Below are positions 10,364-63,936 of a stretch of DNA of 64,000 nt, in pieces (the first letter of the stretch is position 1; each line of letters starts with the position of its first letter). This DNA comes from Naegleria gruberi (Eukaryota). Under the pieces are notes generated by a model. The model did not search any database, had not been told where the DNA came from, and worked only from the letters and a program-made list of their open reading frames with translations. The stretch lies in the NCBI GenBank assembly GCA_000004985.1, contig GG738865.1. One strand, 5' to 3'. A program made the translations under genes and the position numbers.

Positions 10364-10684
10364 TTTTATTTTTATTATTATTTAAAGATTTTGATTTATT
10401 ATTATTTATTAATTTAATTATCATTAATCATTAAATTATGAATTGATGGAATTGCAGTTGTTGCTTTTGTCGGAAAAGCACAATTATTATCCCTACATTA
10501 AAATAAGGTCAATAATAAAGTAAAGTGCCATTCATAATTTGCATGAAATTCAATCAATTTTATAAAGTGAAATGGTGACCAAAATTAAGCATCTGTGTAA
10601 TATTTTGCCATTTGAAAGTAATCATGGCTTAATTGACTTTAAAACAGGTAGGTGGAAATGTTAAACTATAAGATTAGAATTTAT

Positions 10685-39700: not shown

Positions 39701-41283
39701 TTCATTTCAAGTTTTGAAACAATAAATGTATAATCAATAGTATTATTCTTATTGGAAATCAAAACTTGTGGCATTCCCAAAACTGTAAACAAATTATTTG
39801 AAATATTTGTGGGATGTGTGTTACTAGAAACAATTGTCAGGGTGAAATATTGCAGTGTGGAGTTCATTTCTGTGCCTTTCAATGCTTTTGCTTGGAATAA
39901 ATAGGTTCCAGTAAAACTTCCAGAGTTGATTACTAAAATTGGAGATTGAGCATTTGTTGAGTAATTGACCATATTGGAACAATTAAGACATTTCCATTCA
40001 TACGTAAGTAATTCAGTTAATGAACTAAGAATAACCACTTGGGTTGATTGAGAATCATCAATGGTTTCTTCATATTTGCTCAACCAAATATTAAATGTCT
40101 TTACAACAGGATCTGGTTGAGTAGAATTAATACTAGACATTGCAGAACAATCAGTTCCACTAAAACCAGCATTACATACACAATAGTTTTGTAAAATGCA
40201 TGTTCCATTACCTGAACAAACATTTGAATCATTTGACAATTTTCCAAAACAAGTAATGACATCTACATTAGGACTGTTTTGATAACATCTTGTCAAATTT
40301 TGAGTCAAAGAATATCCTGAATTGCATCTGGGTGTAAGTTTTCTTACCCTCTTTTCATCCCTATCAATGAAATAAATTTCTCCTTTCCAAACTTTAACTG
40401 AAATTGGAAATTTCAATGATGAAAGAGTTGCATCCAAATTATCAGCAGTGGAAACGTCAATTTGTGAACCTGCAATGATGGAAATGTTTCCATCTGGTTG
40501 AATTCTCTTAATGAATTTACCAGAAGAAACAAAGAGTTGACCTTGCTCATCCATAAATGAACTTGTTGGTTGGTCAATTGGTTGAAAATGAATTGTTTGA
40601 GAAGATATGTTAACAACATTAATCATGTTAATTCCAATATCTGAAATATAACAAAGTGAACCAGAAATGTGAATATCAACTGGTTGGCTCAAAGCTCCTG
40701 TGGTAATAGCACTTTCGGTCACAATTTTCTTCCAAACTTTTTTTTGTTTCGAATCCAAATAATAAATTGAAGAATCAGCAAGTCCTACTTGAATTCTAAA
40801 CACTTCATTCGATGTGTGAACTTTGGCAGAAGGTAACGTAGTTGAGTTCTCAAAAATCTTAAATACGAAACTTGTTGTCGAATAGAAACTGCCAAAATAA
40901 ATAGCATCTCCATCCATAACAATGCTAGTTAAATTTCCCAACGTGGCCTCACTCATTAAAACTCCAGGAGATGGATAACCAAATGTGGATGTACCAAAAA
41001 GTTTTTGCATGTGTCCAGTGGATTTGTTAATCTTTCGAATATTAAATTCATCCAATAGATAGATATCTCCTGTTTGTTCATGAATGGCTAATTCTTTAGG
41101 ATCATGTAACATGATTTGGGTTGCAAGAGTTGAGTTGTTTGTGTCCATGCTGCCACCACCAGCGATGGTTTCAATTGAGTAAGAAGGTGAAACATATTGT
41201 TGTGCATGTAGTGCCTTGAATGTGGTGAGTAGCATGGCTAAAGTAACTAACACAAGACACATCAAGCGTCCAATACCTTTCAT
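36742..41283 (-). CDS. Giant single-exon receptor (1513 aa), an adhesion-GPCR-like protein fused to RGS. In order it has: a signal peptide, NHL/beta-propeller-like repeats, an EGF-like module, a long extracellular region, a GPS motif, seven TM helices, and a C-terminal RGS domain.
   Basis: Signal peptide MKGIGRLMCLVLVTLAMLLTTFKALHA. EGF-like CSGNGTCILQNYCVCNAGFSGTDC. GPS CDYWDEQARLWSSEGCLVNQVQDGFIECACNHTTLFTTF immediately before TM1. Seven hydrophobic segments. RGS domain LEQFCKKEFSTENLYLYHYIKQQ...YENYVKAGSIMEVNI...FAKMYKEY. Confidence 0.8.
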   Translation of the reverse strand: MKGIGRLMCLVLVTLAMLLTTFKALHAQQYVSPSYSIETIAGGGSMDTNNSTLATQIMLHDPKELAIHEQTGDIYLLDEFNIRKINKSTGHMQKLFGTSTFGYPSPGVLMSEATLGNLTSIVMDGDAIYFGSFYSTTSFVFKIFENSTTLPSAKVHTSNEVFRIQVGLADSSIYYLDSKQKKVWKKIVTESAITTGALSQPVDIHISGSLCYISDIGINMINVVNISSQTIHFQPIDQPTSSFMDEQGQLFVSSGKFIKRIQPDGNISIIAGSQIDVSTADNLDATLSSLKFPISVKVWKGEIYFIDRDEKRVRKLTPRCNSGYSLTQNLTRCYQNSPNVDVITCFGKLSNDSNVCSGNGTCILQNYCVCNAGFSGTDCSAMSSINSTQPDPVVKTFNIWLSKYEETIDDSQSTQVVILSSLTELLTYEWKCLNCSNMVNYSTNAQSPILVINSGSFTGTYLFQAKALKGTEMNSTLQYFTLTIVSSNTHPTNISNNLFTVLGMPQVLISNKNNTIDYTFIVSKLEMKDEISSLWMKDCKLSESKCETKYSLSIYYMINSQVYLKKTESSMVTMAQETLLQKVSLKSPLLVQFNGNSVDQYGTLIFSLNFTNLAGSEIVYSSEIPVYQYMKPVDSNNLFANNTPLEGVAIRDVFNLTINSWNSSVSLQYAIGVHYMGQLMRITDFSYNRTQNVRFPFLKQSNYYLSIIGKDEYGNVETITSSFSIKISKFDGNYLELMNRVINSNSNFNILASIALDMTLDRSKELNNQLVKQLLLNNQFSNMFLLKFLTNTYALLDQDVIFDLESKFGDLLSVTKVAYQYSNQLFGFVRNKIPKQDIEQLVGILSNLISDFDNIRKLTNSLSEILIISELSVNSTLSQLPKIEFNSTNINLIISSFKIYKSGNSQKSINQGSNKVLFDSNAILSRYDAFDKECAISLINYGENHYNDSRNASSSAMDFKFYKENQIVKLSNLEQPILLTFESKSINKSEEYSCDYWDEQARLWSSEGCLVNQVQDGFIECACNHTTLFTTFIGQKRVATSISVMNQLSDTYFAQISFGIFYLIISLMVLITLFIFRKSQPIASRLATPYIGMIALIVECVLIYIVQRSVLVDQLIRQTNILSEESKNADSAATLIANIVMIFANSLNLTAILSYLIQVIRFELLKYFYDLISIKEDKSKNATLKVLKILTSNKVFIGTLIVFCVANLCYWTLWVILLGVKAISLETFGYIVVISYAVMILTMGTLITCVFLFDFIFGCVKSKNRSFKDLIFTQDSPLFFRWEMILFIVSFFFLILNISLGLSTLESRYKSEEGYVRILPNDNASFAFELVYILFYILVFGGFSSLMTILYKIKTFNRKGAEKLQDEEDNKELFTLLGNSHGSSLLEQFCKKEFSTENLYLYHYIKQQNGNFNCEIISHIYENYVKAGSIMEVNIPSNCSKSFAKMYKEYCEESQEIDTSSISQCIETLMENVILNLSDTFSRFVFTDDYISFSKDSEMIEKSMSKFNLVNSK

Positions 41284-41688: not shown

Positions 41689-43509
41689 TCATTGGTCTTC
41701 AGTTTGAAAGTTAAAGTTGTGAGCTTTGATTCTATCGGTCAGTCGAATGCTATCTTGTACGAAATTAATTGGATGAAGCATGTGTAAGTGGAAAATAAGG
41801 TCAGTACCCTTGTCTGGCATTTCTGATGGATCGAAACAAGTTGTGATGAAGGTCAGATACTTTTCTACTTGATCCTGGATCCAATCATTGGTTTCCTCTA
41901 AAGAGGGCATGCATTCGCTCAGCTCTACAACATGTTCCTTGAGGAATGCAATTGAATTGCATGGTTTTTCAAAGGAATTCATCAAGTCTGATTTGACAAT
42001 ACTAAAATTGAAATCCTCATTCTTAATTGGTGTTGCAATTAGTTCCAAAAAATCCATTTTTAAATCTGGGGGAAGTAAATGACTTGTTCTGACCTTATCT
42101 GAGTGTTGCTTTCTATTATTTAGTAATTTCCTCATGTCAATATCCGAAAGTTTGAATAGATTTTCCTGTTCAATATAATAATTATCAAGGAGTATCAAAT
42201 GTAGGCCAATTAATATATCATCTTCGACCAATAATTCATTGCAAGGAAGTTGTGGCAAGATATTTTCCATGAAATAGTTTGCCTTTTCTATCATTTTCAA
42301 CATGCATTTGTGAATCCATTCGAGTTCTTGGGGGTCCAACTGTTTGCTTATTTGAGGAGAAACTCTATTGGCAACTGATTTTAAAAATTCAATATAGAGA
42401 GGAATGGTATTTTCAAAATCAACTGAAAGTTCATTCTTTAAAATTGGCTTTTTCACACAAAATAGGCACTTCTCAAAGAGTTTCAATAGACTAGAGTCTC
42501 TTTTAAACTCTAAACAATGATCAGCATGTGGAATATAGGTATCAATTGTATGTGGTAAACAATTCACGGAAACTAGAATCTTCTTTGTTTGAATTTTGGC
42601 TAATCTTTGCATGAGAATGTGTTGTTCTGGAAGAAATCTCAAATTTTGCAATGGGTCAAAGTTCAAAATCATGAAAAAGAAAGTCTTGTCCTCAGCAGAT
42701 GCAAGCCGGTTAAACTCTTCAATAATTCTTTCTCCAAATAACTCAAATTGGAACATTCCACAAACAAAATATGTCTGCAACCAATCAAGGTCATACCACT
42801 GATTTAACTTTCTTAAGGAATCACTCTCATCTTTGAAATAACTCAATGTTCTACTCATAAATATCTGATTGACAGTATTAGAATCGTATAAAATTATCTT
42901 ATGCCACTTTGAACTAACAAATGAACATTTTTCAATGAGAAATTTGGTATCAATAAACTCAAATATCAAAGCCAACACATGATCTTCGATTGTCAATTTA
43001 AACTTCTTGTCATTTTCACCTGCAATTGATTTCTTCTGACTACTGTATGCAGCACCCTTCCAGATTATATCAATAATTTGCAAAGGATCAAGATAACGGT
43101 CATAAATAGCTTCCAAATCAATATCTATTGAGAGAATATCATTATCCATTCGTGGCACAATTGCTTTATAAGAATTGTCAGCAGAGTTGTGTAATTCAAT
43201 CGAAGTGAATGTCATTTTCATTTCTTCGACACTGTCAAATGTTGCAAATCTCTCTCCATCAACAATTTTCGAATCTCTCATATAGGGTGATTGTTCATCA
43301 TCTATTTCAATGTCTTCACTTGTTTCTCCTCCAACCGAAAGAAAGAGAAAATTATCTAGAGGACTCACATAAGAATCACATGTTGTTGATAATTTAGTAG
43401 GAATTTTGTGATTGAATAACCATTGATCGATGAGTGATGTGGCATTTAAAAATGTTCCTTCTCTGTCATCGTTGAAATCATACCATCCTCCCTCTCCATC
43501 ACACGGCAT
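41689..43509 (-). CDS. Hypothetical protein (606 aa) with an internal F-box-like motif
   Basis: Single ORF. LALIFEFIDTKFLIEKCSFVSSKWHKII resembles an F-box. The rest is unassigned. Confidence 0.5.
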   Translation of the reverse strand: MPCDGEGGWYDFNDDREGTFLNATSLIDQWLFNHKIPTKLSTTCDSYVSPLDNFLFLSVGGETSEDIEIDDEQSPYMRDSKIVDGERFATFDSVEEMKMTFTSIELHNSADNSYKAIVPRMDNDILSIDIDLEAIYDRYLDPLQIIDIIWKGAAYSSQKKSIAGENDKKFKLTIEDHVLALIFEFIDTKFLIEKCSFVSSKWHKIILYDSNTVNQIFMSRTLSYFKDESDSLRKLNQWYDLDWLQTYFVCGMFQFELFGERIIEEFNRLASAEDKTFFFMILNFDPLQNLRFLPEQHILMQRLAKIQTKKILVSVNCLPHTIDTYIPHADHCLEFKRDSSLLKLFEKCLFCVKKPILKNELSVDFENTIPLYIEFLKSVANRVSPQISKQLDPQELEWIHKCMLKMIEKANYFMENILPQLPCNELLVEDDILIGLHLILLDNYYIEQENLFKLSDIDMRKLLNNRKQHSDKVRTSHLLPPDLKMDFLELIATPIKNEDFNFSIVKSDLMNSFEKPCNSIAFLKEHVVELSECMPSLEETNDWIQDQVEKYLTFITTCFDPSEMPDKGTDLIFHLHMLHPINFVQDSIRLTDRIKAHNFNFQTEDQ

Positions 43510-44889: not shown

Positions 44890-46551
44890 ATGGGTGGAAG
44901 TGGTAAGTTTCATCATCCACTATCGAAACTAAACTAAACTAAAGTTTCTAGATCAGATCTTGGTTTAAAACCATGGTTTATGCTTTACGAAATCGAAGAA
45001 AATTTAAGTACGGGAGACATTGTTTTATTTTCAACAAGATCCATACCCGGAAGAACATTCAGACATTGCACAGAATCTAAATATTGTCACGTAGGAATAA
45101 TTGTTAAACTGCCAAAATCTGACAAATCAAATTATGGAAACTCTGAGAATAGTAATATATTAAACACAACAGGAATGAAACAACCACCAACAGCAGAACA
45201 TGTCTATGTATTAGAAGCACAAGTTGATTATGATGGATTATTAGAAATTGCAAAATCAGCTGCTTCCGATTCAACCTCTACAAGTCAACAAGCTGCAATC
45301 AATTTTAAAGTTAAAACTTGGGCAAGTTTACAAAGATTGAGCTCAAAATTATATAGTGGATATTATGATTTAGTTTCGGTTAGAAAGTTGAAATATTTAC
45401 ATGGAAAGAAAGGTGCTGATAAAATTCAAGAAGAATTAATGGATTTATTATTTACTAGAGATTCTAATAATTCAGCAACTGAAGAGGGAAAGATTTCGAA
45501 TATTCTTGAGAATGGTATTTCATTTACAATTCATCCACATTATTTCCAAAACTTTTTTAGAGATTCATTGTTTGAGAATGGTTTAATTTATGCTTCTCCA
45601 GTTGAGGATCGTCAAATTATTGTGAGTGCTTATTTCACCGCTTTTATTTATCAGAGATTGGGAATTTTTGATATGGAAAACAAATCACTCATTACAAAAT
45701 TCACACCATTCCATTTTTCTGAAGATTCCACTTACAAATTACCTTTCAACAAGTCATTTGTAATGGGTTTGGAAAGTCCAATGTACATTTATTTGGATTA
45801 TGAAGTATTTGCTGATCAGGTGAAAGTGGAAAACAAACCTCTTCCGCTTCCTGTAACTGATTTTCCAATTGTTGATAAAATTGTGAGAGAGAGAATGACA
45901 TTTAATGAGTCAATTCTTGGTACATTGAGATCTGGTGATTTGATTTTTACTCAGGAGGAATCATCTGTTGGAAAGGCAATAAGAAGAGCTTGGAATGGTT
46001 CAGTATTCTCTAGAGTGGGTGTTATCATTAGAATTCAAGGTCAACACTTTGTTTATGACATAGCTCCATATTATGTGAGTCAGGAGGAAGCCAAAATACC
46101 TCAAACAAAGATTTTAGAAGGAAGAATTCAATCATTACACTCCTATATTCACTCAACTCCATTCACTAAAGTAACTGTGAGAAAATTAGAAAATGAAGGA
46201 ACCAATGTTTCTGTCAGAATGCAAGAAAAACGTGTTCATGTAGCTCTAGAATTCCAACAAACATTGGAATGTCCACTCAATAAGAAGATTCGTGAAGTTT
46301 TTGATAATATTGATGCTAACAGTTATATTCCAAGAATTAGATTTGATATTTCAGGAGTTTTCTCATGTGTATTTGTATTACTAATGCTCAAACAATTGAG
46401 ATTAATTAATGTGAGTGATGAACCAGCTGATCTTTTATCTTACACTCCTCAGAGTATTCTTGATTTTAAGAAATTGAATGGTGATTACAAATTAACTGAT
46501 GAATTAACTGTATTGAATGCCTTTGTTACAACTGGTAACCATAAAGTTTGA
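44890..46551 (+). CDS. Protein with two tandem permuted-papain-fold (YiiX/DUF830/NlpC-P60-like) domains, preceded by a 13-nt first exon encoding MGGS; join(44890..44902,44957..46551)
   Basis: Repeat 1 GDIVLFSTRSIPGRTFRHCTESKYCHVGIIVKLP...EHVYVLEAQ. Repeat 2 GDLIFTQEESSVGKAIRRAWNGSVFSRVGVIIRI. Upstream ATGGGTGGAAGTG|GTAAGT, then a 54-nt intron ending ...GATCAG, joins in frame (MGGSDLGLKPWFMLYEIEE...). This is the only phase-compatible splice found. The single-exon alternative starts at ATG 44980. Confidence 0.5.
44926..44943. repeat. (AAACT)3 microsatellite inside the proposed first intron
   Basis: aaactaaactaaactaaa seen directly. Confidence 0.5.
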
Positions 46552-46660: not shown

Positions 46661-48835
46661 ATGGTTTCATCACCTGCCATGATCGACCCACCTTCACCAA
46701 CACAAAATGATACACAGAGTAGTGTATCACAATTTCCGGAGGAGCCCGAATGGTTGAAAACAAGACAGTTTTTAACGCATGATTTTTTAAAAAAGCAAAC
46801 AGGTGAATTGAATGTTGCTCAGGGTTTTTCTCTTGAATCACTCCCATCAAAAGTACAGGAATATATTATTATTGAAGAATTATTAAATTGTTTGATGGGA
46901 TTTGAAGGAAAATATATTAGATGTGTTTCACAAATTGAAACCGATCAAGATTCGTATATGACCACTGAAGAAGGTCTTCCGATCACTGATATCACATTAT
47001 TGGAAACTTACAAATATTCTCTTCTTTGTGAAATCGACTCTTCACTCCATGATATGGTAAATAGAATATTACCACTTTGTGAAAAACATACAAGAGTGTC
47101 TAGTTTTTTGGAAAAAAGATCGGGTTATGGTAATGGTCTTGTTTGTCAGGCATTTTGCTCGGCACTGAGAGCTTTGGAAAAGGAATACCTTATGTTTATT
47201 AATCAATTGGATTTACTCTTCAAACAAGATCAAATATCTCTACAAAAATTATACTATCACCTTCAAACAGGTGCTTGGAAAACAATTGAAATTTTGGATA
47301 GATTGGTTGGAGAAATATTGAAGGATAATGCAAAAGGAGGTTCTTTATTGAATGTGCTTCAAAATGTTTCCAGAGTAATTAGTTCAGATGAGAAAACTCA
47401 AAAGTTATTCAATTTTATTTTTACCAAATCGTGTGCTCCCTATTTTGAAATGATAGAGTCGTGGATTTTTAAGGGTGAAATTGAGGATTTATACGAAGAA
47501 TTTTTCGTAGAAGAAAATAAGAATGTAAGAAAGGAACAGCTACTTGAAGATTTTAACTCATTATATTGGGATTCCAAATACTCCATAACACGAGAGGTGC
47601 CATTCTTCTTAACAAAGCTTAGTGATAAGGTTTTAACTTGTGGTAAATATTTGAGTTTACTCAAAGAATGTGGCCAGCGAGTGGATAAACGTATTGTAGA
47701 TAGAATTAATTTTGCTGATGGGAAAGCAATATCAATAATTGAAGAAGCTCACAATCATGCTGCCAAGCAAGTTTTGGATTACTTCTTTGGAGATGTCAAA
47801 GTAATGGATCGTTTAAAGTCCATTAAGTATTATTTTTTATTCGATCATGGTGACTTTTTCGTGCACTTTATGGACACAGCAGAACAAGAGAATGAACTTG
47901 CCAAGAAGAGTACGGATGTTTCGTTATCGAAACTTCAATCCTCGATAGAATTTGCTGCCAAAACTTGCTCGATACCCAACGACGAATATAAGGATAATCT
48001 CACCTGTAGTTTGAAACCTATGAATTTGGCCAACTTTTTAAGTATTATCAAACAGCTTTCCTCATCCAACAGACTGGATGCAGCAGTGCTAGAACAGCAA
48101 CAATTACAAGAATCTCCAATTGAGGGCTATGAAGCATTCTGTTTAGAATATAAGGCAGAGTGGCCAATGTCTCTCATCATCAATAGGAAGAATATTACCA
48201 AATATCAAATTTTATTCAGACACTTATTCTGCTTTAAGTATGCAGAAAGATGCCTCTGTAATACTTGGATTAATCACAAATTTTCAAAGGAGCTGAAATT
48301 GGGGACATCCTTCTCAACATTTTATGCATTAAGGCACAAGATGATACATTTCATTCAACACTTTTTATCATATGCTCTCATAGAAGTTGTTGAAAAGAAT
48401 TGGGTAGAAATGGAAAAGAAAATCAAAACAGCAACAAGTATAGATGAAGTTATCAAGAGTCACGATCAATTTTTGGATTCTTCACTGAATGGCTGTTTAG
48501 TTTCTTCCACTGATGCCTTCAAGTGCTTGACCAAGCTTGTATCTTGTTGCAACAGTTTTTCAAAATACATGAATCAATTCTCCACTGTAATTAGTAATAA
48601 TTTGAATGAAGATGTTCAGGAATCAGATGAACTAACAGATAAATTCGAAAGAAGACGTGAAAGAATAGAACAAGCATCTGAACTGGCTAAAAACACAGTC
48701 CAAGATGACAATTATAGACGAGCCATTTTAAAATTCACCCAAGTATTCGAGACAACCCTTAATCAACTCAGATCTCATACAGCTCACATTTTTACATTAT
48801 CCATGAGTTTTGACAAGGAATCAACTCACTATTAA
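46661..48835 (+). CDS. Gamma-tubulin complex component (Spc97/Spc98/GCP family, GCP2-like), 724 aa, single exon
   Basis: Conserved GCP N-terminal grip region (QEYIIIEELLNCLMGFEGKYI) and C-terminal grip (DYFFGDVKVMDRLKSIKYYFLFDHGDFFVHFMD...). The length and architecture are typical of the family. Confidence 0.8.
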   Translation: MVSSPAMIDPPSPTQNDTQSSVSQFPEEPEWLKTRQFLTHDFLKKQTGELNVAQGFSLESLPSKVQEYIIIEELLNCLMGFEGKYIRCVSQIETDQDSYMTTEEGLPITDITLLETYKYSLLCEIDSSLHDMVNRILPLCEKHTRVSSFLEKRSGYGNGLVCQAFCSALRALEKEYLMFINQLDLLFKQDQISLQKLYYHLQTGAWKTIEILDRLVGEILKDNAKGGSLLNVLQNVSRVISSDEKTQKLFNFIFTKSCAPYFEMIESWIFKGEIEDLYEEFFVEENKNVRKEQLLEDFNSLYWDSKYSITREVPFFLTKLSDKVLTCGKYLSLLKECGQRVDKRIVDRINFADGKAISIIEEAHNHAAKQVLDYFFGDVKVMDRLKSIKYYFLFDHGDFFVHFMDTAEQENELAKKSTDVSLSKLQSSIEFAAKTCSIPNDEYKDNLTCSLKPMNLANFLSIIKQLSSSNRLDAAVLEQQQLQESPIEGYEAFCLEYKAEWPMSLIINRKNITKYQILFRHLFCFKYAERCLCNTWINHKFSKELKLGTSFSTFYALRHKMIHFIQHFLSYALIEVVEKNWVEMEKKIKTATSIDEVIKSHDQFLDSSLNGCLVSSTDAFKCLTKLVSCCNSFSKYMNQFSTVISNNLNEDVQESDELTDKFERRRERIEQASELAKNTVQDDNYRRAILKFTQVFETTLNQLRSHTAHIFTLSMSFDKESTHY

Positions 48836-48862
48836 GCAAATTTATTAATAATAAATTTAAAA

Positions 48863-50038
48863 ATGGCGGCAAAATCTACAGTTTCAAAGTTAGAAAAAAT
48901 GTCTAGTGATGAGTATGATGAACCACTCTCTCCAAACACTCTCTACAGGGAGCAGTTGGGAAGTATGTTTGATACCTACAAATCAATGCAAGAGCAGAAG
49001 GAAACAATCACGTTGGAGGAAATAAGAGAAGTCATACAATTATCAAACCTGAATATTTCGATTGTGGATTTTACTGAGGCATACAAGATGAAGATCGGAA
49101 TGGATAGGAGTGCAACTAGGGAAGAATTTATTTCGATACTGAAGGATATTCTATCACCACCTTCCGATGCTGATTCAAGTCCTAAAACAGCATCACCTAG
49201 AATTAATTCCTCATTGGATTTTCAAGAAAAATGTATTATGGATGTAAAGAGAGAAAAACATTTGACGGAACATAAGAGATATATTAGGGATCACCCTTTA
49301 TTGCATCAAATATTGTTTGATTTCTTGAATACTACTTTGATTTATCAGCCGGATGATGTCTTTTCGTTTGCCTCAGAATATTTCGAAAAGCTGTCTGCAG
49401 TTTCAAGAAAAATCAAGTCAAACAAGAAGGTTCTTATAGTTTCTGGAGCTGTTGTATCGTCAAGCAATTTTGCATTCAAGGTGCAATCAACTTTCCCTCA
49501 TGACATTGAAAGAGCTGTGAGCTATACAACAAGAAAACCTAGGTCAGACGAAGTGGAAGGAGTTCATCACTTCTTTGTGCCTTCCAATGAAACAATGAAA
49601 GAAATGATGAAAGATCACATGTTTTATGAAATTGTACAGATAGGAAATGATTATTATGGAAATGCAAAGAGTGAAATTGATTCTATACTGGAAAAAGACA
49701 AGGTTTGCCTTGTGTTTGCTAACTTGAAAGGAGTTCAACAATTACAAATGATTTTCAAAGAACAAAATATCAATACTGCCACAGTTTATGTCAAACCTGT
49801 CACCACAGCCAAGTATTCAACAAGTATAACAAAGCTTTCAAACGAAGAAATGAGTTTCGATTATTGTTCAAACAGAGTTGCCATGATAGAAGAGGAGATT
49901 AAGCAAGATTTATACAGTTTCTATGATTTTGTAATTGCTTTTGATGATATCTATATGCCTGAAAGTGAAATACCACTAGAGTATGAAATGCCAAATAATC
50001 TTTACAATTTCATTTACAAATTTATTAGCAATAAATAA
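48863..50038 (+). CDS. RIIa (PKA regulatory-subunit dimerisation/docking)-domain protein with a C-terminal guanylate-kinase-like domain that has a degenerate P-loop
   Basis: RIIa-like DHPLLHQILFDFLNTTLIYQPDDVFSFASEYFEKL. GK-like SYTTRKPRSDEVEGVHHFFV...FYEIVQIGNDYYG, but the Walker A position reads VLIVSGAVVSS rather than GPSGVGK. Confidence 0.6.
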   Translation: MAAKSTVSKLEKMSSDEYDEPLSPNTLYREQLGSMFDTYKSMQEQKETITLEEIREVIQLSNLNISIVDFTEAYKMKIGMDRSATREEFISILKDILSPPSDADSSPKTASPRINSSLDFQEKCIMDVKREKHLTEHKRYIRDHPLLHQILFDFLNTTLIYQPDDVFSFASEYFEKLSAVSRKIKSNKKVLIVSGAVVSSSNFAFKVQSTFPHDIERAVSYTTRKPRSDEVEGVHHFFVPSNETMKEMMKDHMFYEIVQIGNDYYGNAKSEIDSILEKDKVCLVFANLKGVQQLQMIFKEQNINTATVYVKPVTTAKYSTSITKLSNEEMSFDYCSNRVAMIEEEIKQDLYSFYDFVIAFDDIYMPESEIPLEYEMPNNLYNFIYKFISNK

Positions 50039-50039
50039 T

Positions 50040-51284
50040 TTAAACAGATTCATTGTTTTGAGTGTTTGGATCTGACTCAGTAGTTGTATTACCGCCATCA
50101 GTTAAGAAGCTTCTAACATTTGTTCTGCAGATTGGGCACTTATCAATTCTTGAAAAACATTCATGACAAACACACTTATGTTTGCATGGTAAAATAGTAA
50201 TATCTCTTGGTTCAGAGAAACAAACAATACATTCCTCAACTTCGTTTTCATCATTCTCATCGGCACCGTATACTTCTTCCAATTCAAATAATTCTGACTC
50301 AGTTTGAGCAAATATTTTAACAACATTTCCTCTATAATATACACCTTCTTCCGAGTTTTCATATCTCTTAAAATTACAAATCACGTAAAGTGATTGGAGT
50401 TCTCTATCGTAATCAAGTGAGCTATCTTCTCCCTCATATCTTTTTAAGGTATCTGATGAATTAGTTGGTTTCAATACAATAACAAGTGGAAGTTTAGAAT
50501 CGGATTGGATTGTTTCATCTTCGTCAGCAAGTAAATCACGAGTAAGTTGATTACCCAATCTTTCTTCCTCTGTATTCTGAATTTCAGGTGCTGTTGTTTC
50601 TACTTGGCCTTCAGCATTTTCAGCTTCCTCGTTATTGGTATTATTATTTGTTTGAGGAGTTTCTCTCACAATTAGTGATGTAAAATAATTATCAACTACG
50701 TTTTGATCAATCATTTCGTCCACAGGCATTTCAAATGATTGGTTTAATCCCTTATCAAAATAAATAAGATCACTCTTTTCTACATATTCCTCATATGTCA
50801 AAAGTCTATTCATATCTATTTGAGAAAGAGGAGTTTCATAAACTGATGCTGTAATATCATCCACTTGATTTTCATTCACATCCAATAAACCTCTTTCCAT
50901 ATTTTCGTCATCCTCCAAATGTTGATCTTGTTGATAATTTTCCTTTCCTTTCTCCTTTGCTTCATTTACAATTTTTTCAAAGTTATCCTTAAAAGGTTGT
51001 AAAATTTTTCTCTTGAAAGATAATTCTGAAACACCCCAAAATAATTGAACACTTGATTTGACAAGAGTGTCAAAATTAAACTTTACACCATTCAATTTTC
51101 TTTGATCATCTTGAGCAGTAATGCATGAAAAAGTATTCTTCTTCAAATGAACAGTGCCATTAACTCTATTTACAGTTAAAACAGGTGAAGTAATACTTCC
51201 TCTAAAAAGTGCTTGGACATACGAACGAATATTTCCTTCTCCCCACATACTTTCAATATTATCAAAATTTGCAATCTTTTCCAA
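50040..51284 (-). CDS. RING-type E3 ubiquitin ligase, MGRN1/LOG2-like (C3HC4 RING at the C-terminus). One or more 5' exons probably lie at 51314-51682.
   Basis: RING CIVCFSEPRDITILPCKHKCVCHECFSRIDKCPICRTNV aligns with the MGRN1 RING. An upstream conserved region reads LQSLYVICNFKRYE. The ORF is open upstream of its first ATG with a stop just before it, so it needs a spliced 5' exon. The candidate exon MKSEHALFSS... lies at 51314-51682, but I could not resolve the splice sites. Confidence 0.65.
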   Translation of the reverse strand: MEKIANFDNIESMWGEGNIRSYVQALFRGSITSPVLTVNRVNGTVHLKKNTFSCITAQDDQRKLNGVKFNFDTLVKSSVQLFWGVSELSFKRKILQPFKDNFEKIVNEAKEKGKENYQQDQHLEDDENMERGLLDVNENQVDDITASVYETPLSQIDMNRLLTYEEYVEKSDLIYFDKGLNQSFEMPVDEMIDQNVVDNYFTSLIVRETPQTNNNTNNEEAENAEGQVETTAPEIQNTEEERLGNQLTRDLLADEDETIQSDSKLPLVIVLKPTNSSDTLKRYEGEDSSLDYDRELQSLYVICNFKRYENSEEGVYYRGNVVKIFAQTESELFELEEVYGADENDENEVEECIVCFSEPRDITILPCKHKCVCHECFSRIDKCPICRTNVRSFLTDGGNTTTESDPNTQNNESV

Positions 51285-52107
51285 TTAATGATTATTTGTT
51301 CCTATGATTATTATTAGATAATATAACATACATTCACAATATTAAATGCTCCTGATCGGATAACATAATACAAATAAGAATTTGAAAATGTAGTTTTCAA
51401 TAATCTAAAAAACCAATACAACAAGAATACATAAATCATCATTATAAATAAATTATACATTTCTGGACTGAAAACATTAGGATAAATAACATCCGATGTT
51501 GATGAAAATATGAACCACCAACTTGCAGAAGTAGTACTAGTCATTTCTCCACCAGCAGTATTACTCAACGAAGCTCCTCCTCCAACAATACTATTCGTTA
51601 CATCCCCTAGCCAACTACCAGAAGAAGCTCCTCCAACAGCCTGATTCAGAGAGGATGAGAAGAGAGCGTGCTCTGATTTCATTTTTTATCTTTGAATCTA
51701 ATGTTGTATTAGAACCTCATCATTGATGATAAGAAACTATCCTAACTGTAGACTGATGTTCCGATTGATCTATTGATGGAGAAATTATGTTGCTGAAGAA
51801 TAATTTAATGTTTTTGATGAAGAAGATGAAGCAGCCAAATTTTGATGAATCAAACAAAAGGCTTGATTTTGCAATAACAATAAAAATAAAATTAGATTCA
51901 AAAAAAAATATTCAACCACACATTGTTCCGTTTTGTTGTTGTTACTATTTTTAGCCTTGAAAATCACATTGTAGCTTGTACAAATTGTTAAATAATAATA
52001 CATCATACTCTCTGATCATCGTATTGTAGTGATATAGAGTACCTAGGAGTAAATTGATTTAATATTCCGATTGATTTTTGTATCATACAAAATATAGATT
52101 AAAAAAG

Positions 52108-53885
52108 ATGTCAGATAGTACTGTTATTTCTGCAGCACTTCCTACTCAAAAGGATTTGACTAACTCTGAAGCCATCATGGAAATTTTAAAGAAGGAAAAT
52201 AGATTCCCATCAGATGAAGAAAATAAGAAAAGAGAAGAAGTTCTTGCAAAATTGGATGGCATTATTAAAGGATGGGTTAAACAAGTGTGCCTGAAACAGG
52301 TATGTTGCTATAAAGTGAATATAAAACTAAATTATTTAATAATAATAATAGGGTTTGTCTGAGGAATTTGTATCATCAGCTGGATCCAAGTTGGTAACTT
52401 TTGGTTCCTTCCGTTTGGGAGTACATGGTCCTGGTGCGGATATTGATACGTAAGTTTAATTTGAATAGCAACAGTAGTGACATTTCATAATTTAGATTGT
52501 GCATTGTTCCTAACATGGTTGAAAAACACCACTGTTTTACAGATTTGCATGATATTTTAAAACTAAGACCTGAAATTGCAGAACTTAAACCAGTTCCAGA
52601 TGCATATGTACCTTTGATTACCATGGTTTTTGATGGTGTAGAAATTGACTTGTTGTTTGCTAGATTATCTAGAACTGTTATTCCTGCTGATTTGGATATT
52701 TTGGATGAATCAAATTTGAAAGATGCAGATGATGAAACTCAACGTAGTTTGAACGGTCCTCGTGTTGCTGATCAAATTTTGAAACTAGTTCCAAATCAAG
52801 AAAATTTCAGAACTACCTTGAGATGTATTAAATTGTGGGCAACCAGAAGAGCAATTTATGGTAACATTGTAGGATATTTGGGAGGTGTTGCTTATGCCAT
52901 TTTAACAGCAAAGATTTGTCAAATGTATCCAAATGCTGCCCCTTCAACACTGTTAACAAAATTCTTTACCGTCTACCAACAATGGAACTGGGGAAAGGTA
53001 CCTGTATTATTAAGACCAATCGAGGAAGGAACTCTTAATTTTAAAGTTTGGAATCCAAAGCTTAATCCAAGAGATAAACAACACTTAATGCCAATCATTA
53101 CACCATCATATCCATGTATGAATTCCACATTTAACGTTTCAAAAACAACTTTAAAGGATATGAAGAATGAATTTGAAAGAGGAGCATCTATTACACAAAA
53201 GGCAGAGAATGGACTTGAAAATTGGGAAACTTTATTTGAAGCAACAGACTTCTTTGTAAGATATAGTAATTACTTACAAGTTGAAATTAATACATCAAAC
53301 GAGGTTGACCACCTTAAATGGATTGGTTTCATTCAATCTAAAGTAAGATTTCTTATTCCAAAGTTAGAAGCAGTTCCTGGATTAACGATCCATATTTATC
53401 CAGACTATTTCCACAATAACCAAGGAGGAGCTTTTTCTTCATATTTTTATATAGGATTAGAATATAAACAAACCAAACCAGGAGAAGGATCAGTAGTAAA
53501 TCTTGCATCTTGTATCGCTGAATTTGAGGAATTACTTACTTGGCCAGATAAGAATGAAAATATGGAAAAACCAAAGATTCAACCAATCAAGAGAAATGCA
53601 ATTCCAGAATTTGTTATTTCAAAGAAGAAAAAGAAGGAACTCATGAAAAAGAATAAGGCACAAAAGAGAAAGGCAGAACAAGACGACGAAAAGAACAAAC
53701 CAAGTGAAGAAACGGAAGCTACTGCAACAGCCACAACTTCGACAGATGGAACTACAGAGAATGGTGAGTCCGCAGCAAAGAAGGCAAAGGTAGACGAAAC
53801 TCCAGCAGTAAAGAGAGAACATAAGGTTGAACTTTTATTGGGTGATGACGATGACGATTTACTTGCTTTGTACTCAAAAAAATAA
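52108..53885 (+). CDS. Poly(A) polymerase (nucleotidyltransferase domain, central domain, RNA-binding domain, then an acidic K/E-rich tail); join(52108..52299,52352..52449,52496..53885)
   Basis: Catalytic motif KLVTFGSFRLGVHGPGADIDT|LCIVP spans intron 2. VPDAYVPLITMVFDGVEIDLLFARLS matches canonical PAP. The introns are 52 nt (GTATGT...AATAG) and 46 nt (GTAAGT...TTTAG) with consistent phases. Confidence 0.88.
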
Positions 53886-53920
53886 ATAAAGTTTGTTAGT
53901 GTTTTCAACAAGAGAGGATT

Positions 53921-56900
53921 TTATTTGTCATCCAAGTCCACATTTTGAGCATCTAGATTAATGTTTTCAGATTTCGATTTTCCAAAGAATAATTCTTTTA
54001 AACTGAATGTTGACCTCCTGTGAGTTGAGGCAGTGGATGGTTTCCGTATTGTTGCATATTTTGAGGCAGAGGAACCTGAGCTGTCCAACTCTACATCTAA
54101 TTCTGCTGTCGAACCTGGTGATGAGAAATATTCGTCTTCCTCAGTCTTCTTTGGTTTTGATCCGCCTCCTCTTAATGGTCTTCTTACCTTAGAAGAAGTA
54201 TTTTCAATTTCGATTTGTGGTGGTGGTACTGTTACAATTTTGGTATGCTTCAAAATATCAAGTTCTCTTTTGAGCGTGTTGATAGTATCATTCAATTTGG
54301 ACCTTTCTTCGACGAACATGTCTGCCTCTTTTTTGGCTTTTCTTGTTTGTTCAACAATTATATTGTTAAGCTCTGTAAGTCTTTCTTCCTTCATTCTGAT
54401 CTTCTTCTCAGCCAGTGATAATTTCATTATAATCTCAGAGTTTTCATTATGAACTTGTGAAAGGTTAACAGTTACTTGTTCCAAGTTTCTTTCTAACCAT
54501 TCAATTTTTCTTGAATATTTCTTGATAATATTTTGATTAGATAAAGTATTGTACTTGTCTGTAATTTCATCTAGTTGTACTTCTAGTTCAATAACTTTAT
54601 CAACTCTGTTTGATAAATCTTCGAGAAGGTTATCTCTTTCAGATTTCAGATTCTTGTTGGTAACTTCCAGTTCTCTTATTCTTTCTAAAGCTTCACTAAG
54701 CCTTTCACTTTCTGGAACTTGAGTAAAAACTGATGAAGGTGCTTCTTCATTGGTTACAACAGGTTCTGTAAAGTAATCCGAGTCATCAATAGCAGTTGGT
54801 GTTGGTGGAATTTGAAGTACTACTTCTTGTGGAGGAGATGGCAGCATGAACTCTGCTTCATTGAAATCAGTGTCACCAGTTTCATCACCATCATCATCAG
54901 AATCGTCGTCAGATTCGTCCATTTCTTCTTGGATATTCTTTAAATCAGTTTTAATTTTTCTCAAAGTTAAGAAAGACTCTCTTCTCTTTCTCAATCTGTC
55001 TCTGTCTGATTCCTTTTTAGCGGTCTTTGTTATCTTTTTGAACTTTTTATCAATAAAGTTCATTACAAGCTCAAGGTCTGGATCGTCTTGTTTGGATTGA
55101 AGTGTTAAGAGTTGGATTTTTGATTCATTGAGTTGCCTACAGTAATGTTCCATTTGCTTCTTGTGTTCTTCAACTTCAGAATCTTTTTCTTTGACCACAT
55201 ACTCCAACTTTCTGCGCTCTTCTTTCATAGAGTCTTTCACTTCCTGGCATTCATTGGTTTTTAGTTGAATAATTTTCTCTAAATCATTTCTATAACTTTC
55301 AGCTGTTGCCAAGTAGTCAGATTTCTCTTTGAGCTGTTCTTTTAAGATGTGAATGTCTTCCAATGATTGCGCACCCTCTTCTTTAGCTTGATTAATTTCA
55401 TCCTTCAATTGAATGTTTTCATCCATAATCCTATTTCTGAATTGTTTTTCTTCTACCAATTCCTTCTCCAAAAGTACACACTTCTCCCTGTATTTGGAAA
55501 GGGTAGGTAAAAGTTCGTTAAGCTTTTCTTCAAGTTCTTGACGCTTTAGATCTGCTTCCTTTGCGTCAGATTCTTTGGATGTAGTTTCAGTTGGATCTTG
55601 AATTTTGATTTCGGTTTTGATTCCTCCTTTCTTGTAAATTTTCAGTTCTTCTTCTATACCATTTGTATATTCCTTCAACTCTCTGATTTCCTCCTTAGCT
55701 TTGTCCAATAATTTCTGAAGCTCCTTGGCAGAAAGTTCTCTATTTACCTTAGGCTTGTTCTTAATATTCTTAGCTCTAAAACCGAATCTAAGGGTGGAAA
55801 GTGTTTCATCCTCGTTATAGGAACTCATAGAACAGTTTATAATCAATGTTGTTCTAGAGTTACCTCCCAAAGAGTCTTGTAATAATCTTGTGAGTTTTGA
55901 ATCTCTGTATGGCACAAATTTGGACTATTTTCACAACATTAATATTATTTTGAAGTCTTAAACTTACCACACCATCTGTTAAGGCATTAATAACCATACC
56001 CAGTGCTGACAAGGATTTGTTAATATTCTTTGCTTCTTCAAGTGTTTGGCCTGATGCTCCGGTTTTCTTGACCTTTTCTGAACCAGCCAAATCTACCAAA
56101 AATAATTTACCAGTTTTTGAATCTAAATTAACCAAGTGCTTTTGTCCAATAGTGATAATAAAGATGCTGTGAGATCGTGAGCTTTCATCGTTCATTCCTT
56201 TGATCGAGTAAGATAATTAATATCTTTTAAACTTACTTGTAGAGGAAACAACACGATTTCCAGCTCCAACTTTCAATAAATTATACACTTCTTCCACACT
56301 TGTGACATATTCCTCAGTTGCTCCTTTAATATATACACCTCTTCCACTTTCTCTGTCTTCCTTAATCTTTAAATCTTGGTGATGTGCTATTCAAAGTTGT
56401 TAATACAATACTATTATAATTACTCAACATACGATCCAGTAAATCTCTTATTTTTTCCAAATAAATTTCAATATAAGATATTTGGATTGTAAACTCAATA
56501 TCAGGATCTGAATTTTCCACTCTATCAAATATTTCCTCAATCATTCTTGGAATTAATCCTTTCAAATTTGAATCAGTGCAATATCCCTTATGATCTTCAT
56601 TTGGTCCCATCATGGTATATGATTTACCTATAAGCAATTATTAGCATTTTCATGAAAGAACCAAAGTCAACATACCACTACCAGTTTGACCGTATACAAA
56701 TACAGTTCCCTATTAAGCGTTTAGTATTGTTTTATAAAACAACATCAACCTACGTTATATCCCTTAAAAATATCTAGAATGGATTTATAATGATGATGAA
56801 GAAGAATACATACCCTCAACAACAGGTTTTCCTACTACATTAAAAAGGTCACCCTGTTTGGAACCACTCTTGAAAATATGATCGAACGTAAAGTCATGCT

Positions 56901-62557: not shown

Positions 62558-63936
62558 TTAATATTCCTCTCCTGTTGCCTTATAAATCTTGCAAGTATTA
62601 TCTTTTGAACCTGTAATAATTGTGTCACCTTCATAATTGAAGGCGCAACTGAAAACTTCATCTTTGTGTCCTCTAAGAACTTGCAAACAATTTCCAGTCT
62701 TGGCATCCCACAATCTACAAGTCTTATCATTAGAAGCAGTAATAATCATATTACCTTGAGGATTGAATGAAACCTTGGAGATTTCAGCATGATGTCCATA
62801 ACAGACAGCAAGACACTCTCCTGTCATTGTATCATAAATTCTGGCAGAACAATCTTGGGAGGCTGTTGCTACTCTTGTTCCAGTTCCATTGAAAGACACA
62901 TCTATTACTTCATCATTATGTCCAGTTAATGTTCTTACACATGTTCCTGTATGCATACTCCATAATTTACAAGTCTTATCGATAGAACTTGAAACAACCA
63001 TATCACCTGAAAAGTTGAATTGAGTTGCTGAAACTTCGCATTCGTGGCCATGGAAATTATAAACACATTCTGCTGATCTAACATCCCAAACACGTACTGT
63101 ATTGTCGAATGATCCAGTGACAATAAAGTTACCAGCATTATTGAAACTCATACTGATAATTTCCTTATTGTGTCCTAATAAAGAATATACTTCCTTTCCA
63201 GTTTCCACATCCCAAACCTTTGCTGTTGTATCAATTGAGGCAGTTGCAATCAAGCTGCTATCTGGATTGAAAGAGACGCAAACAATTTCCAATTCATGCC
63301 CTCTAAGAGTATATTGACATTCACCAGTTTCTGCATCCCACAATTTACATGTTTTATCAAAAGATCCTGTAACAATCTTATCACCGAATGGATTATTGAA
63401 TGCAATAGCATATACTACGTTTTTGTGCCCTTCTAAACTCTTTAATTCCAATCCTGTTTCTGTATCCCATATTTTACAAGTTCTGTCATAGCTTCCAGTG
63501 ATAAATCTATCTCCTGATTTGTTGAAAGCACAATTGGTAAGAGGTAACAAGTGAGCCTGGAGTGATTTCTCTTCTTTGAATTTCTTGCATTTAAGGGATG
63601 ACAACTTGTTTACCAACTCTTTAATATGAATTAGTTTTCAAAGCCTTTAATTTTAAGTACTTACTTTCAACGAGTTGTTTAATTTGTTCAGTCTTTCCGC
63701 TCGGAATTAAAGGTTCGCTGGCAACAATATCTTCGGCCACTGTATTTACATCAGAACTGTAAAATACAAAAACAAATAATACAACACAAATTAAAACAAG
63801 ATGAAATCATTAATACATACAACTCAGTTAAATCTAATAAATCAATAGTCTTTGTACCCTCTCTGCCATTAGATCGTTCATATTCAAGTATAATGCCAGG
63901 TGGATAATATCTGAGCATAAATTTCTTCAGCTTCAT
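62558..63936 (-). CDS. DAW1: DAW1/ODA16/WDR69, a dynein-arm assembly factor with WD repeats; complement(join(62558..63618,63665..63756,63824..63936))
   Basis: N-terminus [20 protein letters not shown]...TKTIDLLDL aligns with human DAW1 [69 protein letters not shown] aligns with [34 protein letters not shown]. Eight WD repeats continue to the C-terminus. Intron 2 is 46 nt with a GTAAGT donor. Intron 1 is about 67 nt and needs an unusual GTTGTA donor to keep frame, so it is uncertain. Confidence 0.85.

What the first reader, a model, noticed from the sequence alone, without database searches (positions are those of the whole stretch)
48863..50038. RIIa docking domain fused to a guanylate-kinase-like domain without a P-loop
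The N-terminal third has an RIIa-type dimerisation/docking helix pair (DHPLLHQILFDFL...YFEKL), as in PKA regulatory subunits and flagellar radial-spoke or AKAP-binding proteins. The C-terminus is clearly GK-fold (SYTTRKPRSDEVEGVHHFFV) but lacks the GxxGxGK Walker A motif, so it is probably a non-catalytic GMP- or protein-binding module as in MAGUKs. It may be an axonemal scaffold, consistent with the DAW1 finding.
Basis: partly seen in the sequence, partly recalled or inferred. Interest (0 to 1): 0.5.

Follow-up and report, generated by a model that had tools for sequence, protein, structure and literature searches.

The report
Docked, catalytically dead guanylate kinase
This Naegleria gruberi gene encodes a three-part protein (EF-hand-like pair, RIIa docking domain of the type that anchors CATIP to flagellar radial spoke 3, and a guanylate-kinase fold that has lost its whole ATP site), so it is most likely a tethered binding or sensing module of the flagellum, not an enzyme.

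Summary

The P-loop is gone (SGAVVSSS where GK has GxxGxGKS). So are D98, D100 and the LID arginines R131 and R135. The phosphate clamp of the GMP site (R38, R41, E44, E69, Y78) is invariant. No Walker A motif exists in any frame nearby, so splicing cannot restore it.

The protein is a derived, catalytically dead branch of a widespread protist RIIa-GK family whose other members are mostly intact enzymes. Tetrahymena Gk1, described with the same architecture, is lost from cilia that lack radial spoke 3. In mouse RS3, CATIP's homologous docking domain attaches to the CFAP91 stalk.

Best reading: a spoke-docked pseudo-kinase that binds GMP or a phospho-ligand. The architecture and the loss of catalysis are shown. 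The localisation and the ligand are inferred.

Verdict: new variant of a known kind, moderate interest.

The parts
48863..50038 (+). Complete single-exon gene, 391 aa plus stop. Architecture: EF-hand-like pair, RIIa docking domain, pseudo-guanylate kinase.
   Evidence: ORF list. Full-length alignment with Naegleria lovaniensis, Willaertia magna and three unnamed orthologues. Conserved microsynteny in N. lovaniensis. 6 synonymous against 2 non-synonymous differences to a 99%-identical strain.
48863..48931 (+). Poorly conserved, predicted-disordered N-terminal tail (aa 1-23). The true start could be M1 or M13.
   Evidence: pLDDT 41-44. Mean identity 0.31 among orthologues.
48932..49153 (+). EF-hand-pair-like domain (aa 24-97): four helices with two short beta bridges. 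Both loops are non-canonical (MQEQKETITLEE, KIGMDRSATREE: no Asp at loop position 1).
49154..49219 (+). Low-complexity Ser/Pro-rich flexible linker (aa 98-119).
   Evidence: pLDDT below 50 for aa 108-117. No invariant residue in aa 99-117.
49220..49291 (+). Extension helix preceding the RIIa core (aa 120-143, ...EHKRYIRD). It is shared with CATIP and with the RIIa-GK family.
   Evidence: AF2 helix 120-143. The alignment to CATIP covers this helix. The family motif Y-x-x-x-HP(E/L) spans this helix and the first residues of the core.
49292..49405 (+). RIIa dimerisation/docking core (aa 144-181, HPLLHQILFDFLNTTLIYQPDDVFSFASEYFEKLSAVS): helix-turn-helix.
   Evidence: Pfam RIIa 21.0 bits. Profile hits to PKA RIIalpha D/D, RSP7, RSP11, ROPN1L and SPA17. 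Most conserved segment of the protein (0.81 mean identity).
49424..50035 (+). Guanylate-kinase-fold domain (aa 188-391), catalytically degenerate.
49442..49465 (+). Remnant of the P-loop: SGAVVSSS (aa 194-201) in place of GxxGxGK[ST]. The Lys14 equivalent is S200.
   Evidence: Degenerate in the same way in all five heterolobosean orthologues.
49520..49552 (+). Retained GMP-binding motif S220-Y-T-T-R224-K-P-R227-S-D-E230 (yeast S34, R38, R41, E44). Further site residues: H236 (yeast Y50), E256 (E69), Y265-G266 (Y78-G79), N267 (S80).
   Evidence: table. T222, T223, R224, R227, E230, H236, E256 and G266 are invariant in the clade. Y265 is Y in four orthologues and F in P0003. The GMP-binding subdomain has mean identity 0.80.
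49715..49732 (+). F285-A-N287-L-K-G290 in place of the catalytic D98-I-D100-x-Q-G motif.
49814..49876 (+). Degenerate LID region (aa 318-338). The R131 and R135 equivalents are lost and only the R146 equivalent (R338) is kept. Least conserved part of the domain.
   Evidence: Mean identity 0.47 for the region measured (aa 313-346).

Best explanation
The gene encodes a pseudo-enzyme derived from an ancestral RIIa-guanylate kinase fusion. The GK fold is kept, but every element needed to bind and transfer the ATP gamma-phosphate is gone: the P-loop glycines and lysine, the D98/D100 acidic pair, and LID arginines R131 and R135. It therefore cannot phosphorylate GMP. What selection preserves is two things. 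The first is the RIIa docking domain with a CATIP-type extension helix. The second is the GMP-binding subdomain with its phosphate clamp (R224, R227, E230, H236, E256, Y265). Proposed mechanism, inferred: the RIIa domain pairs with a second RIIa-type domain, either another copy of itself or a PKA-R-like partner, to form a four-helix bundle. That bundle clamps an amphipathic helix of an axonemal scaffold, most likely the C-terminal helical platform of CFAP91 in the stalk of radial spoke 3. This is where the homologous docking domain of mammalian CATIP sits, and Tetrahymena Gk1 depends on RS3 for its presence in cilia. Tethered there through a flexible Ser/Pro linker, the dead GK domain would act as a binding or sensing module for GMP (or a related guanine nucleotide) or for a phosphorylated protein ligand. 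The EF-hand-like pair, probably unable to bind Ca2+, would supply a further protein contact. Shown: the architecture, the loss of catalytic residues, conservation and purifying selection, and membership of the RIIa-GK lineage. Inferred: dimerisation, the axonemal RS3 address, and the nature of the ligand.
For: Domains. Catalytic-site table against yeast Guk1 (sequence verified against 1GKY): the clade shows G8S, G11V, G13S, K14S/A/T, D98F, D100N, R131S/A/T and R135L/I/V, while R38, R41, E44, E69, G79 and R146 are invariant and Y78 is kept as Y or F. Conservation is highest in the RIIa core (0.81) and the GMP subdomain (0.80) and lowest in the LID (0.47). Purifying selection: 6 synonymous against 2 non-synonymous changes to a sister strain, pN/pS about 0.08, with both replacements in disordered segments. 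Orthologues occur in N. lovaniensis and Willaertia magna with conserved synteny. Family context: an exhaustive HMMER search finds many 260-300-aa proteins that match from the RIIa extension helix to the end of GK. PF02197+PF00625 proteins occur in oomycetes, Nannochloropsis, Heterosigma, Gefionella, Lapot and Andalucia, nearly all with intact GPSGVGKGT, DIDVQG and RLRGRGTE. Docking-domain affinity: CATIP chains in axoneme structures 9FQR and 9D2F are the best PDB hits (1.3e-16 and 3.8e-15), ahead of PKA RIIalpha. Literature: in mouse RS3 the docking domains of CATIP and PRKAR2A attach to the stalk at the CFAP91 hook (bioRxiv 10.1101/2025.05.19.654877). RS3 proteins dock on CFAP91 'typically through RIIa or DPY30 domains' (PMC11779644). 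Tetrahymena Gk1 (TTHERM_00781030, 264 aa), whose N-terminal 60 aa resemble the middle of CATIP, is nearly eliminated from CFAP91-KO cilia (PMC12399478).
Confidence: 0.5

Rival explanations
1. Same pseudo-kinase, different axonemal address. It docks through RIIa on another axonemal amphipathic helix, such as RSP3 in RS1/RS2 or a central-apparatus AKAP, and not on RS3.
For: The RIIa profile also matches RSP7, RSP11, ROPN1L and SPA17, which dock on RSP3 in RS1/RS2. The GK-fold proteins LRGUK and FAP42 are central-apparatus components. Chlamydomonas RSP7 combines RIIa with EF-hands (my own knowledge), which resembles the EF-like plus RIIa combination here.
Against: The similarity to CATIP's docking domain is about 9 orders of magnitude better than to PKA RIIalpha D/D and 11-12 orders better than to RSP7, RSP11 or ROPN1L, and it includes the extra helix. 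The only experimentally studied RIIa-GK (Tetrahymena Gk1) depends on RS3, not on RS1/RS2.
Confidence: 0.2
2. A non-flagellar scaffold. The RIIa domain docks on a cytoplasmic or MTOC/basal-body AKAP-like helix, and the dead GK domain organises a signalling complex in amoebae, much as MAGUKs do at membranes.
For: RIIa-GK proteins persist in oomycete lineages that, to my knowledge, have lost flagella. The clade's GK domain shares with MAGUKs the loss of the P-loop and retention of the phosphate clamp. There are no expression data.
Against: Named family members come overwhelmingly from flagellated protists. The docking domain's best solved matches are all axonemal proteins: CATIP and T. vaginalis 9d5n_CR. 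The downy-mildew proteins are intact enzymes that may be retained for housekeeping GMP phosphorylation, an argument that cannot apply to a dead kinase.
Confidence: 0.15
3. It is still an active guanylate (or other nucleotide) kinase that uses an unconventional ATP site.
For: The GK fold is well predicted. R146 and most GMP-site residues are kept.
Against: All three P-loop glycines, Lys14, D98, D100, R131 and R135 are replaced, mostly by residues that cannot do the same chemistry, in every orthologue. The LID is the least conserved region. The Pfam GK score is 82 bits against 162-193 bits for the intact family members tested.
Confidence: 0.03
4. A decaying relic: a pseudogene or functionless ORF squeezed between two real genes.
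For: It is not represented in the N. gruberi reference protein set, whereas most of its neighbours that I looked up are. Only 27 nt separate it from the upstream gene, and 1 nt separates the convergent stop codons.
Against: The 391-codon ORF is intact. Full-length orthologues at 52-60% identity exist in at least four other heteroloboseans, in conserved synteny. 125 columns of the orthologue alignment are invariant. pN/pS is about 0.08. More distant three-domain relatives exist (P0009, and P0008 plus its upstream ORF).
Confidence: 0.03

Closest known systems
Tetrahymena thermophila Gk1 (TTHERM_00781030, UniProt I7MMN2, 264 aa) and the wider RIIa-guanylate kinase family (PF02197+PF00625)
   Same: The domain order is the same: a CATIP-like RIIa docking segment directly followed by a GK domain. 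Gk1 is nearly eliminated from cilia lacking RS3 (PMC12399478).
   Different: Family members are typically 260-300 aa and mostly carry intact GPSGVGKGT, DIDVQG and RLRGRGTE motifs. I could not retrieve the Gk1 sequence itself, so its motifs were not checked. The Naegleria protein has lost all of these motifs and has gained an N-terminal EF-hand-like domain and a linker. Its Pfam GK score is less than half that of the intact members tested.
[quoted passage not shown]
   Same: This is the best solved match to the docking domain, including the preceding helix (E=1.3e-16 with the family profile). In mouse RS3 this segment is the part of CATIP that attaches to the stalk next to the PRKAR2A D/D domain and CFAP91. 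Gk1 has been proposed as the Tetrahymena counterpart of CATIP.
   Different: The similarity is confined to about 60 residues (CATIP 283-357). CATIP has no GK domain, and the Naegleria protein has no match to the rest of CATIP.
MAGUK guanylate-kinase-like domains (PSD-95/DLG, CASK, ZO-1)
   Different: This is an independent origin inside the RIIa-GK lineage. There is no PDZ or SH3 domain. The hallmark Ser-to-Pro change at yeast S34 is absent: the position is S or G here. Y50 is His here but Tyr in PSD-95.
Axonemal GK-fold proteins LRGUK (mouse central apparatus, 9ijj_4P) and FAP42 (Chlamydomonas C1, 7n6g_6M)
   Different: They have other architectures (LRR+GK; a 2540-aa multi-GK protein), no RIIa domain, and a central-apparatus location.
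DPY-30- or RIIa-anchored nucleotide kinases of radial spokes (AK7, AK9, NME5/RSP23) and RSP7
   Same: The same design principle: a small four-helix-bundle docking domain tethers a nucleotide-kinase fold to a spoke scaffold helix (for RS3; my own knowledge for AK7, NME5 and RSP7). RSP7 combines RIIa with EF-hands.
   Different: The kinase families differ (adenylate kinase, NDK). Those proteins are generally regarded as active enzymes or have a different domain order.

Membership tests
Guanylate kinase enzymes (EC 2.7.4.8, Pfam PF00625) | GK fold with a PF00625 match above the gathering score | tested here: met
Guanylate kinase enzymes (EC 2.7.4.8, Pfam PF00625) | Walker A P-loop GxxGxGK[ST] | tested here: not met
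   SGAVVSSS at aa 194-201, degenerate in the same way in all five orthologues. No such motif in any frame of 47400..51500.
Guanylate kinase enzymes (EC 2.7.4.8, Pfam PF00625) | Acidic pair D98/D100 and LID arginines R131/R135 (yeast numbering) | tested here: not met
   F285, N287, S/A/T and L/I/V at these positions. Only R146 (R338) is kept.
Guanylate kinase enzymes (EC 2.7.4.8, Pfam PF00625) | GMP-binding residues S34, R38, R41, E44, Y50, E69, Y78, S80 | tested here: inconclusive
   R38, R41, E44 and E69 are invariant and Y78 is Y or F. S34 is S or G, Y50 is H, S80 is N. Binding itself cannot be tested in silico here.
Guanylate kinase enzymes (EC 2.7.4.8, Pfam PF00625) | ATP:GMP phosphotransferase activity | not testable with these tools
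   Needs an enzyme assay.
RIIa (R2D2) dimerisation/docking domain proteins (Pfam PF02197) | Pfam RIIa match above the gathering score | tested here: inconclusive
   21.0 bits against 22.4 for this protein. Relatives P0008 (24.8) and P0027 (22.5) pass.
RIIa (R2D2) dimerisation/docking domain proteins (Pfam PF02197) | Profile-level homology to solved D/D domains, and a helix-turn-helix with the P-x-D/N-[VI]-x-x-F-x-x-x-[YF]-F signature | tested here: met
   PKA RIIalpha D/D about 1e-7; RSP7, ROPN1L, RSP11 and SPA17 at 3e-5 to 4e-4. AF2 helices 145-161 and 166-181. Motif QPDDVFSFASEYF.
RIIa (R2D2) dimerisation/docking domain proteins (Pfam PF02197) | Forms a dimeric four-helix bundle that binds an amphipathic helix | not testable with these tools
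   No multimer prediction or binding assay was available.
RIIa-GK fusion family (Tetrahymena Gk1 type) | CATIP-type RIIa domain immediately N-terminal to a GK domain | tested here: met
   A jakobid relative (Andalucia, P0311) has the canonical form.
RIIa-GK fusion family (Tetrahymena Gk1 type) | Intact kinase motifs | tested here: not met
RIIa-GK fusion family (Tetrahymena Gk1 type) | RS3-dependent presence in cilia | not testable with these tools
   Known only for Tetrahymena Gk1 (PMC12399478).
CATIP | Docking domain with a preceding helix | tested here: met
   E=1.3e-16 and 3.8e-15 over 61-62 profile positions.
CATIP | Remainder of CATIP (globular N-terminal region) | tested here: not met
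   Matches to CATIP chains are limited to residues about 283-357. The protein is not a CATIP orthologue in the strict sense.
MAGUK | PDZ and/or SH3 domains preceding the GK-like domain | tested here: not met
   No such Pfam hits at E up to 10.
MAGUK | Ser-to-Pro substitution at yeast S34 (S35 with Met1) | tested here: not met
   S220 here, G in three orthologues, P in PSD-95.
MAGUK | Phospho-peptide binding by the GMP-site clamp | not testable with these tools
   The clamp residues are present. Binding is untested.
EF-hand proteins | Paired helix-loop-helix fold | tested here: met
EF-hand proteins | Canonical 12-residue Ca2+-binding loop (D-x-[DNS]-x-[DNS]-G-...-E), or a Pfam EF-hand match | tested here: not met
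   The loops are MQEQKETITLEE and KIGMDRSATREE. No Pfam EF-hand hit.

The most novel reading that the evidence does not exclude
The early radial spoke 3 carried an RIIa-docked guanylate kinase. This slot then diverged in three directions. Many protists kept it as an enzyme. Animals reduced it to the docking domain joined to a new globular domain (CATIP). A lineage that includes Heterolobosea converted it into a dead GK that acts as a spoke-resident GMP/guanine-nucleotide or phospho-protein sensor with an added EF-hand-like module. That last conversion would be a second, independent 'enzyme to binding module' transition of the GK fold, parallel to the origin of MAGUKs. If true, the Naegleria protein would couple cGMP/GMP turnover, or a phosphorylation signal, directly to RS3 mechanics.
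Probability: 0.2. Interest if true: 0.65.

Novelty: new variant of a known kind. Interest (0 to 1): 0.42.

Why it matters
RS3 has only recently been resolved, and it turned out to be a hub of enzymes and pseudo-enzymes docked on CFAP91 through RIIa and DPY30 domains. A GK-fold protein that keeps the CATIP-type anchor and the GMP phosphate clamp but has shed its entire ATP site would be a natural experiment on what this RS3 slot is for: catalysis, or binding and sensing. It would also be a second, independent case of the guanylate-kinase fold being turned into a ligand-binding module, the transition that gave rise to MAGUK scaffolds. In practical terms, the gene appears to be missing from the N. 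gruberi reference protein set. If so, published Naegleria differentiation and flagellar-gene inventories built on that annotation could not have scored it.

Tried and rejected
1. The first AF2 run, with only the six heterolobosean sequences, gave pLDDT 56.7 and was discarded. The run with the 34-sequence family alignment gave 86.0.

2. The Foldseek afdb50 library was not available, so no UniProt-level structural neighbours were obtained.

4. I tried to identify Tetrahymena Gk1 within the family, using a ciliate-like profile search and exact cluster look-ups. No accession or organism name was returned.

5. I tried to decide whether Naegleria also has a canonical, active RIIa-GK paralogue. The profile search lists only its 120 best hits and none was from Naegleria. 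This is not evidence of absence.

6. Literature searches for Naegleria + guanylate kinase + flagella and for Naegleria + CFAP91 gave nothing useful.

7. Alternative-splicing rescue of the P-loop is rejected. No Walker-A-like motif occurs in any frame within about 1.4 kb on either side.

8. The MAGUK relationship is rejected as membership (no PDZ/SH3, no S34P) and kept only as a functional analogy.

9. Linkage to the WD40 gene at 62558..63616 (presumably the 'DAW1' finding) is rejected as evidence. It lies 13 kb away in a eukaryotic genome, with unrelated genes between.

Full report
**What is there**

Window 48863..50038 (+) is a single uninterrupted ORF of 391 codons. The window is Naegleria gruberi NEG-M. 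Six other ORFs in the window are identical to NCBI proteins of that strain, among them the Lon protease (XP_002677722.1), the spc97/GCP gene immediately upstream (XP_002677728.1) and NAEGRDRAFT_88171.

The ORF itself has no N. gruberi entry in the 5.8-billion-protein collection. Its only near-identical match is a metagenome ORF (P0001, 99%). It therefore appears to be unannotated in the reference set.

It is nevertheless a real gene:
- Full-length orthologues at 52-60% identity exist in N. lovaniensis, in Willaertia magna and in two unnamed assemblies.
- The order GCP(+), gene(+), RING(-), poly(A) polymerase(+), kinesin(-) is conserved in N. lovaniensis.
- Against the 99% strain there are 6 synonymous and 2 non-synonymous differences (pN/pS about 0.08). 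Both replacements lie in disordered segments.

**Domains**

- *RIIa domain.* The call is borderline for the single sequence but secure at family level. A profile of this region from 29 relatives hits the docking domain of CATIP in two axoneme cryo-EM entries (9fqr_Xh at 1.3e-16, 9d2f_c at 3.8e-15). It also hits a T. vaginalis axonemal RIIa protein (1.7e-12), about ten PKA RIIalpha D/D structures (about 1e-7), and RSP7, ROPN1L, RSP11 and SPA17. The match to CATIP includes an extra helix (aa 120-143) in front of the canonical helix-turn-helix.

**The kinase is dead**

I aligned the family with yeast Guk1 and the PSD-95 GK domain. Both reference sequences were first verified against PDB. I then tabulated the functional positions.

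In the five heterolobosean orthologues:
- the P-loop G8-P-S-G-T-G-K14-S becomes S-G-A-V/I-x-S-S/A/T-x;
- D98 becomes F and D100 becomes N;
- LID R131 and R135 become S/A/T and L/I/V; only R146 survives.

By contrast R38, R41, E44, E69 and G79 are invariant and Y78 is Y or F. Y50 is His, S80 is Asn and S34 is Ser or Gly.

Conservation follows the same pattern. Mean identity is 0.81 in the RIIa core and 0.80 in the GMP-binding subdomain, but 0.47 in the LID. No Walker-A-like motif occurs in any reading frame between 47400 and 51500, so an alternative exon cannot restore the site.

**Where it comes from**

An exhaustive HMMER search of 1.84 billion representatives found many 260-300-aa proteins that match from the RIIa extension helix through the GK domain. 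These are RIIa-GK fusions. They occur in oomycetes, Nannochloropsis, Heterosigma, the malawimonad Gefionella, the rhizarian Lapot and the jakobid Andalucia. Nearly all have intact GPSGVGKGT, DIDVQG and RLRGRGTE motifs. The Naegleria protein is thus a derived branch of an old enzyme family.

Its nearest non-heterolobosean relatives are also P-loop-less (P0008, P0009, P0019). P0009 shares the EF-like N-domain. So does P0008, once the adjacent upstream ORF in L001 is joined to it. Several other family members have degenerated independently; one of them (P0073) carries the MAGUK-like S34P change.

**How it probably works**

Three published results bear on this.
- In bovine sperm RS3, proteins dock on the C-terminal helical platform of CFAP91 'typically through RIIa or DPY30 domains' (PMC11779644).
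- In mouse RS3 (PDB 9D2F) the docking domains of CATIP and PRKAR2A attach to the stalk at the CFAP91 hook, while their globular domains swing on flexible linkers (bioRxiv 10.1101/2025.05.19.654877).
- In Tetrahymena, Gk1 (TTHERM_00781030, 264 aa) is a guanylate kinase whose first 60 residues resemble the middle of CATIP. It is almost eliminated from cilia lacking RS3 and has been proposed as the counterpart of CATIP (PMC12399478).

The Naegleria protein has that architecture, and its docking domain is most like CATIP's. I therefore infer that it is tethered by its RIIa domain to an axonemal amphipathic helix, most likely on the RS3 stalk. There it would present a non-catalytic GK domain whose conserved phosphate clamp binds GMP, a related nucleotide or a phosphorylated partner. 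The architecture, the loss of catalysis and the constraint are shown. Dimerisation, the address and the ligand are inferred.

**Evidence against, and rivals**

- Nothing here shows expression or localisation.
- I could not verify that Naegleria has CFAP91.
- I could not retrieve the Gk1 sequence.
- RIIa domains also dock on RSP3 and on central-apparatus AKAPs, and other axonemal GK-fold proteins (LRGUK, FAP42) sit in the central apparatus.
- Canonical RIIa-GKs persist in downy mildews, which to my knowledge lack flagella. The family is therefore not strictly flagellar, although those are active enzymes that could be kept for housekeeping.
- The guanine-recognition residues are partly altered, so GMP binding is not assured.

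The rivals are another axonemal site (0.2), a non-flagellar scaffold (0.15), residual kinase activity (0.03) and a functionless relic (0.03).

**Comparison and novelty**

The protein works like a MAGUK GK domain: a dead kinase with a retained clamp. It is not a MAGUK, because it has no PDZ or SH3 domain and no S34P change. It shares only the 60-residue anchor with CATIP. It belongs to the RIIa-GK lineage but fails that family's catalytic features.

The RIIa+GK architecture already exists in databases, annotated simply as 'guanylate kinase', and one member has been tied to RS3. New here are the P-loop-less, EF-hand-extended subfamily and its presence as an apparently unannotated gene in N. gruberi. 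I rate it a new variant of a known kind, with moderate interest (0.42).

Noticed in passing
window 48863-50038: The 391-aa ORF has no N. gruberi entry in NCBI or UniRef as held in the protein collection, although six other ORFs in the window match N. gruberi NEG-M proteins exactly. The gene seems to be missing from the reference annotation.
   Followed up: partly
window 48833-48865 and 50036-50042: The packing is extremely tight. Only 27 nt separate the stop of the upstream GCP/spc97 gene from this gene's ATG. Only 1 nt separates its stop from the end of the convergent RING-finger gene (50040..51284, -), so the UTRs must overlap neighbouring coding sequence.
   Followed up: no
L002 (N. lovaniensis PYSW02000037.1) 2608-11197 compared with window 46661-55915: The microsynteny GCP(+), RIIa-pseudoGK(+), RING(-), poly(A) polymerase(+), kinesin(-) is conserved between N. 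gruberi and N. lovaniensis.
   Followed up: yes
L001 5508-6792 (JGI metagenome 3300062526): The gene model P0008 (RIIa plus P-loop-less GK) is preceded, 49 nt upstream, by a separate called ORF. That ORF encodes the EF-like N-domain (63% identical to the N-terminus of P0009). The two are probably one three-domain gene that was split by an intron or by the gene caller.
   Followed up: partly
family alignment A2 (P0014, P0057, P0066, P0072, P0073, P0090, P0138): Other RIIa-GK family members have independently lost catalytic residues (D100, R135, sometimes E69) while often keeping a P-loop. P0073 has Pro at yeast S34, the MAGUK-type change. Loss of catalytic function seems recurrent in this family.
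   Followed up: partly
one search hit list (P0226, P0240, P0242): Canonical RIIa-GK proteins are present in Bremia, Hyaloperonospora and Peronosclerospora. These are downy mildews that, to my knowledge, have lost flagella. This suggests that the fusion protein serves as the housekeeping GK there.
   Followed up: no
Only generic WD40 and propeller Pfam matches were obtained, so its identity as DAW1 was not tested.
   Followed up: no
window 36742-41283 (-): This 1513-aa ORF has a GPS (GPCR proteolysis site) motif and an EGF-like domain. That is an adhesion-GPCR-like feature in a heterolobosean.
   Followed up: no
window 3190-5340 (+), 25569-27977 (-), 41689-43509 (-), 44980-46551 (+): These large ORFs (523-802 aa) have no Pfam match at E<=1e-5. 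Two of them are annotated in N. gruberi, one as hypothetical (NAEGRDRAFT_88171) and one as F-box-like.
   Followed up: no
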